A stretch of 64,000 bases of DNA, taken from a bacterium. Its GTDB lineage: Bacteria > Patescibacteriota > Minisyncoccia > Phycocordibacterales > CAIZLB01. This document shows, in pieces, positions 5,696 through 35,606 of this stretch. Made by a program: the position numbers and the translations under genes. Numbering within the stretch: position 1 is the stretch's first letter; the number at the start of each line of letters is the position of its first letter. The stretch spans positions 152,424 to 216,423 of the forward strand of contig JANOAN010000013.1 in the NCBI GenBank assembly GCA_031411135.1, in the 5' to 3' direction. The notes beneath the pieces were generated by a model. The model saw only the letters and a program-made list of their open reading frames with translations, searched no databases and was not told the DNA's origin.

Positions 5696-6478
5696 CTATA
5701 AAGTAAGTATCTCCACCCCATCCTCCGTAATCGCCACGGTATGTTCAAAATGACAACTCCTTTTTCCATCAACTGTTTTATAAGTAAATCCATCATTAGA
5801 AACCATAATCGCACCCTTACCTTCATTCAAAATCGGCTCAATGGCAATAACCATTCCTGCCTTCAAAGCGACCCCTTGCCCCTTTCTACCATAATTTGGA
5901 ATAAATGGATCTTCGTGAACATGCTTACCCACCCCGTGTCCTCCTAAATGTTCTGCAAATTCAAAAACTTTCCCTTGGCTCGCCTTTTTCATAGCTTGTT
6001 CAATAGCAAAACCAATATCCCCCGTTTTGACCCCCGGCTTGCAAACACTAATCCCTGCATCTAATGCAATTTTACAAGCTGATAACATTACCTTTGCTGT
6101 TGAATCGGCCTTGTCGATTCCACCAACAATCACAGTCACCGCTGAATCTAAAACCATCTTTTTATAAATAATTCCCATATCGATCGAAACCATATCTCCA
6201 TCTCGCAAAATTCTTCCTCCTGGAATTCCATGTACAATTTCCTCATTTACCGAAACACAAAGACATGCCGGAAAAGGAAACGGTGCCCCTGCTGGTTGAT
6301 AATTCAAAAACGCTGGGATCACGTCATTCTTTTTACACAATTCTGCGGCTTTGTCATTTAAATCTGCCGCAGTTACACCTGCAACTGTTGCTTTTTCAAG
6401 ATCACGAAGAATATCAGCCAGGATTTTCCCGCCTTTTCGCATAAGTTCTATTTCTTTTTCGGTCTTGATGTAAATCAT
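5696..6478 (-). CDS. map: type I methionine aminopeptidase
   Basis: 260 aa with MAP fold motifs (HGIPG, metal-ligand D/H/E pattern). Conserved position after adk. Confidence 0.9.
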   Translation of the reverse strand: MIYIKTEKEIELMRKGGKILADILRDLEKATVAGVTAADLNDKAAELCKKNDVIPAFLNYQPAGAPFPFPACLCVSVNEEIVHGIPGGRILRDGDMVSIDMGIIYKKMVLDSAVTVIVGGIDKADSTAKVMLSACKIALDAGISVCKPGVKTGDIGFAIEQAMKKASQGKVFEFAEHLGGHGVGKHVHEDPFIPNYGRKGQGVALKAGMVIAIEPILNEGKGAIMVSNDGFTYKTVDGKRSCHFEHTVAITEDGVEILTL

Positions 6479-31125: not shown

Positions 31126-32058
31126 TTACTTCAAATTCTGATACCCCACAACTATTGCCTCGGCAATAAATAGTTCCAAGTGAGAGTAATTATCATGCTC
31201 TTGGGCTTGTTCAAGGTAAGTGTAGTATAGAATCTTTTTTTCTTTTTCAATAATAGAAGGAGAGATTTTGTGCGACAAAAGCATTGTATTAAGTAGTAGT
31301 CTCCTCACTCTACCGTTCCCATCGGAAAAAGGATGAATCTTTTCAAACCTCGCGTGTATTTCAGAGGATTTTTTTATGAAATCCCTGTTATTTAATTTTT
31401 TCGCTTCATTAATTTCATTAACTAAGATCTCCATTAATTCTGGTACTCTAATATAATTAGCTGTAACAACATTTGTTCCAGCAATTCTCACACCGTGATT
31501 TCTGTAATTTCCGGCATTATCCATAATGCCATTCATGAGTATTTCGTGAAGCCTTTTGATATACCTCCCATCTAGATCTTTTTTTGAAGCGAGAAAGTCA
31601 AACATGTACTGAATAGCCACTTTGTGGTTCTTGGCTTCTATTTGCTCAACAAGGGTTTTATTTTTAAGATTCGTATTCTCAAAAATTACCATAGCAGTTT
31701 CTCTTTCAGTTAAAGTACTACCCTCTATAGCATCAGAATGGTAAGTTGACCTGACGCAAAAATGTTCATATAAATCTTTTCTTTGTAAAACGAGATTCAA
31801 TGGATCACTTATTAGTTGTGAAAAGTTTAATATTTGATCGTAAACTTTTTCAAGTTCGAGACTGGAAACTTCACCTTTTCCTGTATATTTATCATAAAGA
31901 TCATTGATTTTATTCAAAGCTTTTGGTCGAGGTGAGGATTTACCGAGAAACCATGCATTAAACGCAGGAAAACTCACACCAAACATGCTAGCAAGCTCGG
32001 TCTGCGTAAAATTCAATTTTTCCTGAATTTTTCTTAATTTTTCCTGAGTTTCGGTCAT
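31126..32058 (-). CDS. Fic family protein with N-terminal HTH
   Basis: HPFSDGNGRVRR (HPFx[DE]GNGR Fic motif). N-terminal XRE-like HTH. Confidence 0.85.
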   Translation of the reverse strand: MTETQEKLRKIQEKLNFTQTELASMFGVSFPAFNAWFLGKSSPRPKALNKINDLYDKYTGKGEVSSLELEKVYDQILNFSQLISDPLNLVLQRKDLYEHFCVRSTYHSDAIEGSTLTERETAMVIFENTNLKNKTLVEQIEAKNHKVAIQYMFDFLASKKDLDGRYIKRLHEILMNGIMDNAGNYRNHGVRIAGTNVVTANYIRVPELMEILVNEINEAKKLNNRDFIKKSSEIHARFEKIHPFSDGNGRVRRLLLNTMLLSHKISPSIIEKEKKILYYTYLEQAQEHDNYSHLELFIAEAIVVGYQNLK

Positions 32059-32115: not shown

Positions 32116-32838
32116 TTATTTACTAAATTCCCTTACAATCTCTTCCTCATCAACTTTTGAAATTGATTTTTTAAACAAAGCTTTCTTTCCGTGTACTCTT
32201 TTTTTACATTCATCCCAAGTTTGATCAATATTAATTTTTCCTTGAACCATGCTGACATATGAGAATGCTGGTGATTTATTCTTTGATGATTTTTTAGTTG
32301 GAACTCCAACTTTAATATTTAAAACCACATCCTTGTTTGGATACTCGGCTAAAAACCCACTGTACAAATCTGGCTTCTTTCCATCCGCATAAGCAGTCGC
32401 AATTTCATCGCACCTCTCGTTTCCAAAAATTTCGCTGTGCCCTTTCAAAAGAGTCCATTTGATTTCTTTTCCTTTTAATACAGAATCCATTTCTTGCCAC
32501 AAATCTATGTTTTTAACTTCTTCTTTTGTTGAACTGATCCAGTTTTTAGCTTTCCATCCGTGAAGCCATTTTGTAGCACCGTTTAACACATATGCGGAAT
32601 CTAATCTAACTTCATATTTTGTAACAGTACCTTTAGCATAGTAGTCATCAAAGAATTTTAAACCTTCAATTACAGCCTTTAATTCCATTCGGTTGTTGGT
32701 TGTTAAGTCCTCTCGGCCCCCTCTTTCGTCAATTCGCATTTCGTCAGCGTCGTTTGGGTATATACAGATAAAGCCGTAGCCACCAGGGCCAGGGTTTCCG
32801 CGAGATGATCCGTCGGTGTAGATGGTGATGGGTTTCAT
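32116..32838 (-). CDS. rnhA: ribonuclease HI with C-terminal RNA/DNA hybrid-binding domain (HBD)
   Basis: TDGSSRGNPGPGGYG...TNNRMELKA RNase H core. C-terminal FSYVSMVQGK...TWDECKKRVHG...KKF resembles the hybrid-binding (caulimovirus viroplasmin-like) domain. Starts 8 nt after the RT stop. Confidence 0.8.
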   Translation of the reverse strand: MKPITIYTDGSSRGNPGPGGYGFICIYPNDADEMRIDERGGREDLTTNNRMELKAVIEGLKFFDDYYAKGTVTKYEVRLDSAYVLNGATKWLHGWKAKNWISSTKEEVKNIDLWQEMDSVLKGKEIKWTLLKGHSEIFGNERCDEIATAYADGKKPDLYSGFLAEYPNKDVVLNIKVGVPTKKSSKNKSPAFSYVSMVQGKINIDQTWDECKKRVHGKKALFKKSISKVDEEEIVREFSK

Positions 32839-32846
32839 GAGGGGTA

Positions 32847-33830
32847 TTATAACACCTGGTCTATTTGCTCTACTAATTTTCTAGAATTTCCATGAGACAA
32901 AAGCCCTAAATATGACTGTGCCACCTCATCAATCTTGTTATCTTTTAAATTCCTAAACATCCTACGTTTTGCCGCGGATCTTAAAACCCGACAATCTGTA
33001 AAATGTACCCATCCCAAAAAATCTACACCTGGTGCAAGAGTCCGTATAAAAATTTTGTCCGGGTGAAGAGAAAGTTTTAGTCTTGATAGCAAAAAATCGT
33101 GAATTTTTGACAGCACATTTTCTAGCCACGACTTGTCCTTGTTCATAATTACAAAATCATCAGCATACCGGATATAATATTTCGCTTTTATCTTGTGTTT
33201 AACAAACTGGTCAAACTCATTCATGTAAATATTAACTAACAATTGAGACGTAAGATTACCTAAAGGCAACCCTTTACCTACAGCAGTGCTGTGAAAACTT
33301 GAAAGTATGCGATTGAGCAACCAAATAATATCCTGATCCTGTATGTGCACTTTTAATATTTCTACTAACACACTTTGATCAATTGAGGCAAAGAATTTCC
33401 TGATATCGCATTTTAAAACCCAAAGCGTTTTTGAATAATTATTACTCGCTTTATAGGAATATTTTCTAAACTGATTTAATGCTTTGTGTGTTCCTTTACC
33501 TAACCTGCACGAATAGGAGCTTGAACTAAATTTTCGATCAAAATACGGGTACAAGATTCGGTATATTGCATGGTGAAGCAACCTGTCTCTCACTTTTGCT
33601 TTATGAATATTTCTTGGCTTTGGGTCAGAAATATTGAAAGCTTCATACTCTCCATGCATATATGTCTTATGAACAAGGTCGTTATGTAGAGAAATAATAT
33701 TATGCATTAAATTACGCTCAAATTCCTGCGTATCCTTTCTTCCTCTTTTGCCACGGATAAATTCCTGCCAAGCTTCGAGCAAATTTTCCAAAGAGATGAT
33801 ATCTTTATACTTAAAAATAAAAAAAGACAC
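32847..33830 (-). CDS. DGR-type reverse transcriptase
   Basis: RT motifs DIRKFFASID, LPLGNLTSQ (DGR-specific [I/L]GxxxSQ) and YADDFVIM. GTG start. Adjacent to Avd and TR. Confidence 0.9.
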   Translation of the reverse strand: MSFFIFKYKDIISLENLLEAWQEFIRGKRGRKDTQEFERNLMHNIISLHNDLVHKTYMHGEYEAFNISDPKPRNIHKAKVRDRLLHHAIYRILYPYFDRKFSSSSYSCRLGKGTHKALNQFRKYSYKASNNYSKTLWVLKCDIRKFFASIDQSVLVEILKVHIQDQDIIWLLNRILSSFHSTAVGKGLPLGNLTSQLLVNIYMNEFDQFVKHKIKAKYYIRYADDFVIMNKDKSWLENVLSKIHDFLLSRLKLSLHPDKIFIRTLAPGVDFLGWVHFTDCRVLRSAAKRRMFRNLKDNKIDEVAQSYLGLLSHGNSRKLVEQIDQVL

Positions 33831-33833
33831 ACC

Positions 33834-34223
33834 ATGAATACTACACCCCCCCCGAGAATGCTACCAGTGCTTCAGCGTCTAAAAAGCCTCTATATCTTGT
33901 GGCATGACTACTACCAAACCATACCAAAAATCCACAGACACTCTCTTGGTCAGAGAATCGATACTTTATTTGTGGAAACCATCGAGGCAATATCGGTTGC
34001 AAGCTTTTTATCTAAAGATGAAAAGCAACCTTGGGTTCGGTTAGCTATACGAAAAGTTGATACTACTAAGATACTTTTGATGGTGTTATGGGAAACCAAA
34101 TCTCTAGATAATAAAAAATATATAGCCCTTTCTGGACCCATAGATGAAATAGGAAAAATGCTTGGCGGATGGCAAGGACAGATAGCAGCGCAACTTTCTA
34201 AACAAAACTCCTCCGCCATATAG
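33834..34223 (+). CDS. avd: DGR accessory variability determinant (Avd)
   Basis: 129-aa four-helix-bundle-like protein that aligns with Bordetella-phage Avd (YILWHDYYQTIPK..., ...IDEIGKMLGGW). Encoded divergently from the RT. Confidence 0.75.
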   Translation: MNTTPPPRMLPVLQRLKSLYILWHDYYQTIPKIHRHSLGQRIDTLFVETIEAISVASFLSKDEKQPWVRLAIRKVDTTKILLMVLWETKSLDNKKYIALSGPIDEIGKMLGGWQGQIAAQLSKQNSSAI

Positions 34224-34243
34224 ACAGAGGAGAAATGAAAAGA

Positions 34244-34371
34244 TTTGCGAAACCCAAAGCAGTATTGTTGGCGTTACGGTTGTTGTCGAGCCAGTTGGCA
34301 TTCCAGTTCCAGGAGCCATCATCGTTCCGATAGAGATACAGGGCGTTCCGGTTGCCGTTCGGGTTGCGAAG
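34244..34371 (-). repeat. DGR template repeat (TR), 128 nt, adenine-rich on minus strand (AAY codons)
   Basis: Identical to 34772-34899 except at 21 positions that are all T on the plus strand (A on the minus strand). Encodes NRNALYLYRNDDGSWNWNANWLDNNRNANNTALGFAN. Confidence 0.9.
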
Positions 34372-34641
34372 AATTGTATAAAGCACCGCCTATTTCACCA
34401 CCCCTTGAAGTCCCGTGACGATCTCAGGATTGAATCGTATTCGGCATCGTAATGCCATAGTGCCTTACACCAAGTATCTTCATTTTTGTTGAAGTGTCTG
34501 CATGCACCACTCTACCTGAAGCCTTGACCGCAGATACTCTCGATGCACGGATACTGGATTCGGTAGGAAGAAACCTTAATCTCTTCCATATTCACCTACT
34601 ACCGCTTTTTATCTTATCCTAAAAAATTAAATTTTGATATA

Positions 34642-34670
34642 GAAAAACCCCGCGCAAATGCAACGGGGCT
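34642..34670 (-). terminator. intrinsic terminator downstream of the DGR target gene
   Basis: ccccg-cgcaaatgcaa-cgggg with a T-run on the minus strand. Confidence 0.6.
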
Positions 34671-34767
34671 GGAAGATTTGGAGTTGTATCTTGCCATAAC
34701 TTACTTTTTGAGCCGAAGAGCAAAGTTCAAAGGGTCAGAGGAGACCACAGTGTCCAAAGCCCGAGAG

Positions 34768-35397
34768 CTACTCTGCGAAACCCAAAGCAGTATCGCTGGC
34801 GCTACGGCTGCGGTCGAGCCAGCCGGCACTCCAGTCCCAGGAGCCACCATCGCGCCGATAGAGACACAGGGCGCCCCGGCGGCCGTACGGGCTGCGAAGG
34901 GTGGTTCCGAGGAATTCGATCCAGCTGACGTTGAGGGTCTTGTGGAGCCACTTCAAGGTCGTCTGGTTCTCTTCCTTGTAAAGCGCTTCGCCGATCTTGG
35001 CATCCGCTTGGATCGCTTTCAGCAGGAGCCGTGCGCGTTTCTCTTCGCCGGTGACTGTGGTTTCGTCATCGATGAGGCCCGTCTGTGCGATGAGCTTCGT
35101 CGGGTCGAGTTCGGTGATGGCGAGCGAGCTCTTGTCCTGCTCTTCGTCGCCTTTGAGTCCATCGCCGTCCTTCGGTCCGCGCCAGATGCTCCAGCCTTCG
35201 CCGGTGAACGTGGCGGGGTCGAACGGAGTGGTGCGGTCGATCTTCAGGACTTGTGGTTTAAGGACGTGTTCGAGGGGAACGACGACGGTTTCGCCACGAA
35301 GGAATTTCAACGCTCCTGGCGTTCCTCCGAGCTTTTTTACGATTGCATTCAATTGCCCACCTGTAAGGTCGGCCATTGCGAATTTATCTTCTGACAT
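34768..35397 (-). CDS. DGR target protein (hypothetical, C-terminal C-type-lectin/FGE-like variable region)
   Basis: 209 aa, about 58 percent GC. C-terminus LYRRDGGSWDWSAGWLDRSRSASDTALGFAE is the VR-encoded counterpart of the TR peptide. Confidence 0.85.
   Translation of the reverse strand: MSEDKFAMADLTGGQLNAIVKKLGGTPGALKFLRGETVVVPLEHVLKPQVLKIDRTTPFDPATFTGEGWSIWRGPKDGDGLKGDEEQDKSSLAITELDPTKLIAQTGLIDDETTVTGEEKRARLLLKAIQADAKIGEALYKEENQTTLKWLHKTLNVSWIEFLGTTLRSPYGRRGALCLYRRDGGSWDWSAGWLDRSRSASDTALGFAE
34772..34899 (-). repeat. DGR variable repeat (VR) at 3-prime end of target gene
   Basis: 128-nt ungapped match to the TR with substitutions only at TR adenines (17 A>G, 3 A>C, 1 A>T). Confidence 0.9.
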
Positions 35398-35606
35398 GTT
35401 TCCTCCTTGTGCTTAGTTGCACGTTGGATTTTTCCCCTAATCCGGGGCAGAACCATGACCGTGGTAGTCATAGCCAGAAAACGTTGATAAATCAAGGTCT
35501 TTTGGCTATGACTACTGAAAAAATTGTAAGGTTCTGAACTGTTTAATATTATATCACATCATATATCTTCTTGTCAAGCTCAGCGTAATGGTTCAATACC
35601 TTTGCA

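What the first reader, a model, noticed from the sequence alone, without database searches (positions are those of the whole stretch)
34244..34899. TR/VR differences are exclusively at template adenines, with a strong A-to-G bias
Ungapped alignment (offset 528 nt) of TR 34244..34371 and VR 34772..34899 gives 21 mismatches over 128 nt. Every mismatch is a T in the plus-strand TR, which is an A on the transcribed minus strand. There are 17 A>G, 3 A>C and 1 A>T changes, and no substitution at C, G or T. TR-encoded Asn (AAC/AAT) codons appear in the VR as G, S, D and R, the products expected from mutating the first two codon positions. The bias toward G is stronger than a random A-to-N process would give. 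It could reflect selection, RT misincorporation preference, or the high-GC context of the target gene.
Basis: seen in the sequence. Interest (0 to 1): 0.8.

Follow-up and report, generated by a model that had tools for sequence, protein, structure and literature searches.

The report
Ordinary DGR with clade-typical A-to-G bias
This is a standard diversity-generating retroelement in a Patescibacteria (CPR) chromosome that rewrites the tail of one small protein at template adenines, and its strong A-to-G bias is what about 100 related elements show and was already reported for such elements in 2012.

Summary
TR 34244-34371 and VR 34772-34899 (minus strand) differ at 21 positions. All 21 are TR adenines: 17 A>G, 3 A>C, 1 A>T. 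All 93 non-A positions are identical (P about 4e-15). One mismatch (34245) lies on the homology boundary, so 20 are secure.

The locus is a complete DGR: target gene with the VR at its 3' end, spacer, TR, Avd gene on the opposite strand, then an RT with the SQ motif. The layout is the same in 77 of 77 relatives from Patescibacteria.

The G bias is not special to this locus. In 56 relatives, substitutions are 61% G, 23% T and 16% C. Given its sequence contexts, the window's 16/20 is within range (P=0.06).

The bias follows the template's 3' neighbour, not the codon position. After C, G or T, errors are about 75% G and only 4% C. After another A, C rises to 30%. This favours an RT error signature over protein selection. 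GC pressure is not supported.

Transitions to G were already reported as the commonest DGR substitution (PMC3521204).

Side observations: target genes are far more GC-rich than their genomes, and a conserved terminator-like hairpin follows the TR.

The parts
34768..35397 (-). DGR target (variable protein) gene, 209 aa. It has no Pfam or NCBIfam family and no signal peptide evident. The VR encodes its last ~42 residues.
34772..34899 (-). Variable region (VR). The secure core is 34774-34899, and it ends 1-2 codons before the stop codon at 34768-34770.
35548..35577 (-). Consensus sigma-70-like promoter (TTGACA-18-TATAAT, with TG) about 150 nt upstream of the target start codon.
   Evidence: 12 of 12 hexamer matches. 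This is a consensus match only.
34642..34669 (-). Terminator-like hairpin plus T-run about 100 nt downstream of the target stop codon.
   Evidence: Read in the sequence. RNA fold z=-2.9.
34372..34767 (-). VR-TR spacer, with host-like GC of 0.43. It presumably holds the TR promoter, which was not identified. A weak sub-threshold Rfam RT-7 match lies at 34488-34543.
34244..34371 (-). Template region (TR). The secure core is 34246-34371. It has 35 A on the minus strand, 26 of them in 13 AAY codons when read in the VR frame.
34198..34232 (-). 10-bp hairpin followed by TTTTGTTT, starting 12 nt after the TR. It is probably the intrinsic terminator or 3' structure of the TR RNA. It overlaps the 3' end of avd on the other strand.
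   Evidence: A stable hairpin is present in 50 of 56 relatives. Covariation: 42 double-change cells against 10.8 in shuffles, 0 of 500 shuffles as high.
33834..34223 (+). Avd (accessory variability determinant) gene, 129 aa. It is on the strand opposite to the TR and RT. Its start codon lies 3 nt from the RT start codon, and the two genes diverge.
   Evidence: Pfam bAvd 41.8 bits (cutoff 40). NCBIfam DivGenRetAVD 55.7 bits, below its cutoff of 80. Opposite orientation in 77 of 77 relatives.
32847..33830 (-). DGR reverse transcriptase, 327 aa, with LGNLTSQ (the SQ motif of domain 4) and YADD.
   Evidence: Translation. RVT_1 at 84.7 bits. More than 560 relatives in each of two collections, mostly named Patescibacteria. 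Motif definition from PMC3521204.

Best explanation
The locus is a functional, cellular diversity-generating retroelement of the Patescibacteria-specific DGR lineage.

Proposed mechanism:
1. The 128-nt TR is transcribed from the minus strand. The transcript probably ends at the conserved hairpin and U-tract just 3' of the TR.
2. The RT, with Avd, copies the TR RNA into cDNA. It copies C, G and U faithfully but misincorporates opposite about 55-60% of adenines.
3. The cDNA replaces the VR at the 3' end of the target gene. This recodes 13 AAY (Asn) codons and a few other A-containing codons in the last ~42 residues of a 209-aa protein.

The A-to-G excess is the normal error spectrum of this RT lineage:
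- Opposite an A that follows a faithfully copied C, G or U, the main error is dCTP (read as A>G, about 75-80% of errors). dATP (A>T) makes up about 20%, and dGTP (A>C) is almost never used.
- Opposite an A that follows another A, the error rate rises to about 77% and dGTP rises to about 30% of errors.

The window's substitutions split into 12 in the first context and 8 in the second. A count of about 12-13 G out of 20 is therefore expected, and 16 is observed.

Shown: the anatomy, the A-specificity, the clade-wide spectrum and its dependence on context, and concerted TR-VR evolution. Inferred: that the spectrum is intrinsic to the RT, the ends of the TR RNA, and that the element is active now.
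For: A-specificity: 21 of 21 mismatches are at TR adenines and 93 of 93 non-A positions are identical, P=3.8e-15.

Codon placement: all internal substitutions are at codon positions 1 or 2.

Components: RT with SQ and YADD motifs, plus Avd.

Layout: the same arrangement is found in relatives, with avd reversed in 77 of 77.

Recent homing: at 12 of 13 TR differences between the window and its syntenic relative L081, each VR copies its own TR. L081 shows the same spectrum (15 G, 3 C, 1 T).

Clade spectrum: 980 substitutions in 56 relatives give G 61%, T 23%, C 16%. The per-locus G fraction has median 0.60 and IQR 0.52-0.70. This was replicated with 102 VRs (1758 substitutions, 60/23/16%) and in 8 VRs from viral contigs of the same RT clade.

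Context: among substitutions, the share of A>C with a 3' neighbour A against a non-A neighbour is as follows.
- Codon position 1: 30% against 7%, p=7e-4.
- Codon position 2: 43% against 4%, p=1e-5.
- Codon position 3: 67% against 0%, p=8e-4.
Position-2 A>C in NAA codons gives the same Thr/Pro/Ala/Ser outcomes that are missing from NAC codons. Selection against those residues therefore cannot explain the gap.

Window against context model: 12.4 G of 20 expected, P(>=16)=0.063.

Literature: G was the commonest and C the rarest substitution across 155 DGRs (PMC3521204). C misincorporation dominated (59%) for the Bordetella phage RT in E. coli (PMC12875486).
Against: All spectra come from fixed natural VRs, which have passed selection. 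In-frame AAY outcomes are not independent: CGC (Arg) is in excess and CAC (His) and TGC (Cys) are in deficit (chi2 p=4e-14). Selection or mismatch-extension coupling therefore contributes.

Out-of-frame and synonymous sites are few (9-14 substitutions per cell after frame filtering). The frame filter used there is partly circular.

The window and L081 together (31 of 39 G) lie at the high end of the clade, so a lineage-specific extra bias or selection is not excluded.

No IMH/IMH* pair or GC-rich inverted repeat was found next to the VR. No read-level VR heterogeneity could be examined, so present-day activity is inferred only.

The target fold could be tied to the C-type lectin fold only weakly.
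Confidence: 0.85

Rival explanations
1. Protein-level selection on the variable protein, not the polymerase, produces the G excess. Under this view, raw cDNA is close to random A>N, and only variants rich in Ser, Gly, Arg and Asp survive.
For: In-frame AAY outcomes deviate from independence: Arg CGC 66 against 44 expected, His 23 against 54, Cys 13 against 35. In the window, position 2 is 12 of 12 G and position 1 is 4 of 8 G (Fisher p=0.014). PMC3521204 warned that genomic VRs are selected snapshots.
Against: The A>C deficit follows the 3' neighbour within every codon position. NAA codons at position 2 do yield Thr/Pro/Ala/Ser-type changes (6 of 14), while NAC codons almost never do (29 of 787). 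At third positions, A>C is 6 of 9 with a 3' A and 0 of 14 otherwise. Ser is abundant as AGC, yet TCC is nearly absent. The same spectrum recurs across target proteins only 30-70% identical.
Confidence: 0.1
2. GC pressure drives the bias. Either the GC-rich target gene or GC-biased repair or conversion favours G/C outcomes at mutated adenines.
For: The target gene has GC 0.59 in a window of GC 0.39. Targets exceed their flanks in 47 of 50 relatives.
Against: The per-locus G fraction does not correlate with flank GC (rho 0.04) or target GC (rho 0.09). A>C also raises GC, yet it is the rarest change, and A>T is commoner.
Confidence: 0.03
3. The two copies are an ordinary duplicated segment diverging by drift or strand-biased deamination, for example C>T decay of the non-coding copy in an AT-rich genome. 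On this view it is not a DGR pair.
For: 17 of 21 differences are T/C transitions on the plus strand. Direction cannot be read from one pair alone.
Against: There are no G/A differences on the same strand, and the 4 transversions are also at TR adenines. All changes fall at codon positions 1 and 2 of the VR frame, with no synonymous drift. An RT and Avd lie adjacent. The pattern is identical in about 100 independent loci. Each VR tracks its own TR between species.
Confidence: 0.01
4. A-to-I editing of the TR RNA by a host adenosine deaminase adds A>G changes on top of RT misincorporation.
For: Only the excess of A>G itself.
Against: No deaminase gene lies in or next to the cassette. About 40% of changes are transversions, so RT misincorporation is needed in any case. 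Purified bRT-Avd alone reproduces adenine mutagenesis (PMC7826257).
Confidence: 0.01

Closest known systems
CPR/Patescibacteria DGRs (the 'CPR set' of Wu et al. 2018, PMC5758913, with 'B3 architecture' in 90% of the set; 'DGR clade 2' of Roux et al. 2021, PMC8144416)
   Same: The host phylum matches. The cassette is cellular, since the window also carries EF-Tu, EF-G and ribosomal protein genes. The target is small and has no recognisable domain. An avd gene is present. The layout is conserved in 77 of 77 relatives.
   Different: Nothing found. The passages I read do not spell out the B3 layout, and I did not build an RT phylogeny. Assignment to B3 and to clade 2 is therefore inferred.
Bordetella phage BPP-1 DGR (mtd-avd-TR-brt)
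   Same: Shared features are adenine-specific mutagenesis of about half the TR adenines, AAY codons, a VR at the 3' end of the target, an Avd partner, and an SQ-motif RT. C misincorporation (A>G) also dominates in vivo, at 59% (PMC12875486).
   Different: Here avd is on the opposite strand, between the TR and the RT. No IMH/IMH* pair or VR-proximal hairpin was seen. A terminator-like hairpin follows the TR directly, where BPP-1 has a 140-nt spacer.

The context rule is reversed. bRT shows high G misincorporation (A>C) at NAC (26.8%) and low at NAA (2.4%). This clade shows A>C at about 1% of NAC sites and about 23% of NAA sites.

Arg is the second commonest AAC outcome here but is described as disfavoured by bRT.
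General DGR substitution statistics (DiGReF survey of 155 DGRs, PMC3521204)
   Same: The order G > T > C among substitutions is the same, with wide scatter between loci.
   Different: The bias is stronger here than in 31 VRs of other DGR clades from viral contigs: 61% against 45% G and 23% against 40% T, chi2 p=5.5e-10. The survey did not report dependence on the 3' neighbour.

Membership tests
Diversity-generating retroelement (DGR) | RT of the DGR clade, with the (I/V/L)GxxxSQ motif in domain 4 and the YxDD catalytic motif (PMC3521204) | tested here: met
   The translation contains LGNLTSQ and YADD. RVT_1 scores 84.7 bits. The nearest NCBIfam model, group II intron RT, scores 154 bits, below its cutoff of 300.
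Diversity-generating retroelement (DGR) | A TR/VR near-repeat whose differences are confined to TR adenines | tested here: met
   21 of 21 mismatches are at A and 93 of 93 non-A positions are identical, P=3.8e-15.
Diversity-generating retroelement (DGR) | VR inside (usually at the 3' end of) a protein-coding target, with TR adenines at codon positions 1 and 2, typically as AAY | tested here: met
   The VR ends at the stop codon. There are 13 AAY codons, and all 20 secure substitutions are at positions 1 or 2.
Diversity-generating retroelement (DGR) | Avd accessory gene | tested here: met
   Pfam bAvd scores 41.8 bits against a cutoff of 40. NCBIfam DivGenRetAVD has E=4.9e-15 but scores 55.7 bits, below its cutoff of 80.
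Diversity-generating retroelement (DGR) | IMH at the VR end, IMH* at the TR end, and a GC-rich inverted repeat downstream of the VR (BPP-1 and Legionella type) | tested here: inconclusive
   The last 18 nt of the repeat are identical in TR and VR, and the flanks are then unrelated. No significant hairpin lies within about 80 nt after the VR. Such repeats occur in only 34% of DGRs (PMC5758913).
Diversity-generating retroelement (DGR) | Variable protein with a C-type lectin (or Ig) fold displaying the VR | tested here: inconclusive
Diversity-generating retroelement (DGR) | Ongoing mutagenic retrohoming (VR renewed from TR) | tested here: met
   Comparative evidence only. At 12 of 13 TR differences between the window and L081, each VR matches its own TR. 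There is no neutral drift at non-A sites. Read-level variation could not be tested.
CPR DGR lineage (Wu 2018 architecture B3; Roux 2021 clade 2) | Patescibacteria host and the CPR-typical order and orientation of avd, TR and RT | tested here: inconclusive
   The closest RTs (60-71% identity) are mostly in records named Patescibacteria or subgroups such as Paceibacterota and Saccharibacteria; a few are labelled otherwise. The target-TR-avd(reverse)-RT layout occurs in 77 of 77. The text I read does not state the B3 layout explicitly, and no RT tree was built.

The most novel reading that the evidence does not exclude
The Patescibacteria DGR reverse transcriptases have their own neighbour-dependent error signature. 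dGTP misincorporation (A>C) occurs almost only at an A that follows another A. Everywhere else dCTP (A>G) dominates. This is the reverse of the context rule mapped experimentally for the Bordetella phage RT, so each DGR lineage would sample a different, hard-wired subset of amino acids. Here that subset is rich in Ser, Gly, Asp and Arg, with almost no Thr, Pro or Ala.

Two unexplained features accompany this. The diversified genes are kept about 13 GC points above their genomes. A conserved hairpin and U-tract ends the template RNA.
Probability: 0.5. Interest if true: 0.45.

Novelty: new member of a known kind. Interest (0 to 1): 0.25.

Why it matters
As stated, the finding is a textbook DGR hallmark in a lineage already known to be rich in DGRs, so it changes little.

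The useful by-product is a comparison of about 100 loci. It shows that the substitution spectrum in natural VRs depends on the template's 3' neighbour. That helps separate polymerase bias from selection. It also predicts which amino acids this lineage can actually sample. This is relevant to people who engineer DGRs for directed evolution and to models of DGR repertoire size.

The GC-rich targets and the conserved element 3' of the TR are cheap leads for anyone studying CPR DGR RNA biology.

Tried and rejected
- Extra VRs in the window. A scan with the TR, ignoring A positions, on both strands found only the known pair.
- Neutral or deamination drift of a duplicate. Rejected on strand asymmetry, codon placement and concerted TR-VR change.
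- GC pressure as the cause of the G bias. There is no correlation with flank or target GC.
- Codon position (selection) as the main determinant. It is replaced by the 3' neighbour after stratifying.
- A dislocation model using the 5' neighbour. There is little effect of the 5' base: p=0.06 within the AA context, p=0.005 within the NAC context but with small shifts (G 76-84%), and no tendency for the mutated base to copy the 5' neighbour.
- Tandem-error coupling (A>C after a misincorporated 3' A). It is strong in frame but not confirmed out of frame (6 sites). It is left open between selection for Arg and mismatch extension.
- Codon bias of a highly expressed gene as the reason for the GC-rich target. 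EF-Tu, EF-G, L2 and L3 in the same window have GC3 of 0.31-0.34, against 0.70 for the target.
- The RNase H gene next to the RT as a DGR accessory. It is adjacent in only 2 of 81 loci, both with the same host synteny.
- RNAalifold on the gappy alignment of the TR 3' flank gave no structure. I replaced it with explicit pair counting.
- Rfam gave only a sub-threshold RT-7 match, 21 bits against a gathering score of 117.
- Foldseek against PDB gave no match.
- The look-up of encoding contigs for the window's own target protein returned nothing on record.

Full report
**1. Observation**

The region was read directly. The repeat finder returns one direct repeat, 34246-34371 / 34774-34899, with spacing 528. 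All have T in the plus-strand TR: 17 T>C, 3 T>G and 1 T>A. On the minus strand these are 17 A>G, 3 A>C and 1 A>T.

A scan of the whole window with the TR, ignoring A positions, finds only these two copies. All 93 non-A positions are identical. With 35 A among 128 positions, the chance that all 21 mismatches fall on A is 3.8e-15. The count of 17/21 G against an even 1/3 has p=1e-5.

The mismatch at 34245 is on the homology boundary. The codon is AAT in the TR and GAG in the VR, and 34243 is a non-A mismatch. This leaves 20 secure substitutions.

In the VR reading frame, all secure substitutions are at codon positions 1 or 2. All 13 internal AAY codons are changed: S x5, R x3, G x2, D x2, Y x1. 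In addition TAT>TGT and GAT>GGT occur.

**2. What it is**

On the minus strand, in order, the locus contains:
- a 209-aa ORF (35397-34768) with the VR at its 3' end;
- a 396-nt spacer;
- the TR;
- a 129-aa Avd-like gene on the plus strand (33834-34223; Pfam bAvd, NCBIfam DivGenRetAVD below its cutoff);
- a 327-aa reverse transcriptase (33830-32847; RVT_1).

The RT carries LGNLTSQ and YADD, the SQ and YxDD motifs that define DGR RTs (PMC3521204). The window also holds EF-Tu, EF-G and ribosomal protein genes. Target homologues, where a source names them, and most RT relatives come from Patescibacteria. This is therefore a chromosomal DGR of a CPR bacterium.

The target gene is preceded by a 12/12 sigma-70 consensus and followed by a terminator-like hairpin.

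**3. Relatives**

Two scans returned 160 loci with RTs 60-71% identical, plus 9 viral contigs at 45-63%. In the first 80 loci, 56 have a detectable TR/VR pair in the same place. avd is on the opposite strand in 77 of 77 loci where it is found.

Wu et al. 2018 describe a CPR set in which one architecture (B3) makes up 90%. Roux et al. 2021 describe a DGR clade restricted to Patescibacteria.

L081 is a syntenic relative at 86% nucleotide identity, with RecJ and HIT genes upstream. Its TR differs from the window's at 13 positions. At 12 of these, each VR matches its own TR. The thirteenth lies at the 5' boundary. This is concerted TR-to-VR transfer after the two lineages split.

**4. The G bias**

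Pooled over 56 relatives there are 980 substitutions: G 61%, T 23%, C 16%. Of all TR adenines, 55% are changed. The per-locus G fraction has median 0.60 and IQR 0.52-0.70, and 6 of 56 loci reach 0.81 or more. The window's 16/20 does not differ significantly from the pooled rate (p=0.057). L081 shows 15 G, 3 C and 1 T.

With 102 distinct VRs (1758 substitutions) the proportions are 60/23/16%. Thirty-one VRs of other DGR clades (RT 26-37% identical, viral contigs) give 45% G, 40% T and 15% C. The order is the same but the bias is weaker (chi2 p=5.5e-10).

The literature already states that transitions to G are the commonest and C the rarest substitution across 155 DGRs (PMC3521204). For the Bordetella phage RT in E. 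coli, C misincorporation predominates at 59% (PMC12875486). In vitro, bRT-Avd gave A > C > G (PMC7826257).

**5. Cause of the bias**

The spectrum differs by codon position:
- position 1: 48% G, 27% C;
- position 2: 73% G, 5% C.

This turns out to be an effect of the 3' neighbour. The breakdown is:
- 3' neighbour A: 44% G, 30% C, 25% T, and 77% of sites mutated;
- 3' neighbour C: 78% G, 2% C, 20% T;
- 3' neighbour G: 81% G, 6% C, 12% T;
- 3' neighbour T: 60% G, 10% C, 30% T.

After removing 11 loci with a doubtful frame, the A>C contrast (3' A against 3' non-A) holds within each codon position: 30% against 7% (p=7e-4), 43% against 4% (p=1e-5), and 67% against 0% (p=8e-4).

Position-2 A>C gives Thr, Pro, Ala or Ser in both NAA and NAC codons, yet it is common only in NAA codons. 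Selection against those residues therefore cannot be the reason. The 5' neighbour has little effect.

The G fraction does not correlate with flank or target GC (rho 0.04 and 0.09). A polymerase error signature that depends on context is the best explanation.

Selection or mismatch-extension coupling may add to it. In-frame AAY outcomes show excess Arg (CGC) and deficits of His and Cys. The few out-of-frame AA pairs do not confirm that coupling.

Using the context-specific rates, the window is expected to show 12.4 G of 20, and P(>=16)=0.063.

The context rule is the reverse of that reported for bRT. bRT shows G misincorporation of 26.8% at NAC and 2.4% at NAA.

**6. Target protein**

**7. Side observations**

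The target gene has GC 0.59 and GC3 0.70, against window medians of 0.395 and 0.33. It is unlike EF-Tu or the ribosomal protein genes. Across the clade, the part of the target upstream of the VR has median GC 0.54, against 0.42 for flanks, 0.39 for the RT and 0.41 for avd. The target exceeds its flanks in 47 of 50 loci. In the outgroup the difference is only +0.02. I have no explanation for this.

A hairpin followed by GTTTTGTTT lies directly after the TR (34232-34198). A stable hairpin (fold z-score below -2) is present there in 50 of 56 relatives. It has compensatory changes: 42 double-change cells against 10.8 in shuffles. It looks like the terminator of a short TR RNA.

**8. Verdict**

The A-to-G bias is real, but it is the normal behaviour of this DGR lineage and of DGRs in general. 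The locus is a new member of a known kind. The neighbour-dependent spectrum, the GC-rich targets and the element 3' of the TR are modest leads.

Noticed in passing
window 34768-35397 (-); also targets in L001-L080: The DGR target gene is a strong compositional outlier. Its GC is 0.59 and GC3 0.70, against window medians of 0.395 and 0.33. EF-Tu and ribosomal protein genes have GC3 of 0.31-0.34. Across the clade, targets exceed their flanks by a median of 0.126 GC in 47 of 50 loci, while the RT and avd are host-like. This is unexplained.
   Followed up: partly
window 34198-34232 (-); same position in 50 of 56 related loci: A conserved hairpin followed by GTTTTGTTT(T) lies immediately 3' of the TR. 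It is preceded by a conserved TTCATTTCTC motif and has compensatory stem changes. It is probably the terminator or 3' structure of a short TR RNA. It overlaps the avd stop region on the other strand.
   Followed up: partly
window 33830-33834: The avd and RT genes diverge with start codons 3 nt apart. Their promoters must therefore lie inside each other's coding regions. avd is antisense to any TR read-through transcript. This orientation is conserved in 77 of 77 relatives.
   Followed up: partly
window 35548-35577 (-): A perfect sigma-70 consensus (TTGACA, 18 nt, TATAAT, with an extended -10 TG) lies upstream of the target gene.
   Followed up: no
window 34678-35394 (+): A 238-aa ORF runs antisense across almost the whole target gene. 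It is most likely a by-product of the high GC content (few stop codons), not a gene.
   Followed up: no
window 32116-32838 (-): An RNase H gene (240 aa, with a C-terminal extension) starts 8 nt after the RT stop codon. Only 1 of 80 relatives (L070, same host synteny) has it there, so it is not a conserved DGR accessory.
   Followed up: yes
L081 5493-5625 against 6047-6178: The VR of the closest syntenic relative carries a 1-nt insertion relative to its own TR. This shifts the frame of the last ~20 codons (protein P0002 has an aberrant C-terminus). It is either an RT indel or an assembly error.
   Followed up: no
pooled AAY codons of L001-L080: AAC outcomes are not independent between the two adenines. 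CGC (Arg) and CTC (Leu) are in excess, and CAC (His) and TGC (Cys) are depleted. Thr, Pro and Ala are almost absent (1, 0 and 0 of 368).
   Followed up: partly
window 34488-34543 (-): A weak Rfam match to RT-7 RNA (RF03028) lies in the VR-TR spacer. It scores 21.3 bits against a gathering score of 116.8 (E=0.037) and is probably chance.
   Followed up: no
L025; L052; L083, L090, L098, L105, L148: L025 appears to hold two DGR cassettes. In L052 one TR matches two adjacent stretches of the same target ORF. Five viral-contig loci have one TR with two VRs.
   Followed up: no
window 31126-32058 (-): A Fic-domain protein with an N-terminal HTH lies two genes downstream of the RT. Only a weak, partial match to it appears in one related locus, 2.7 kb from that locus's RT (L024, 29% identity).
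   Followed up: partly
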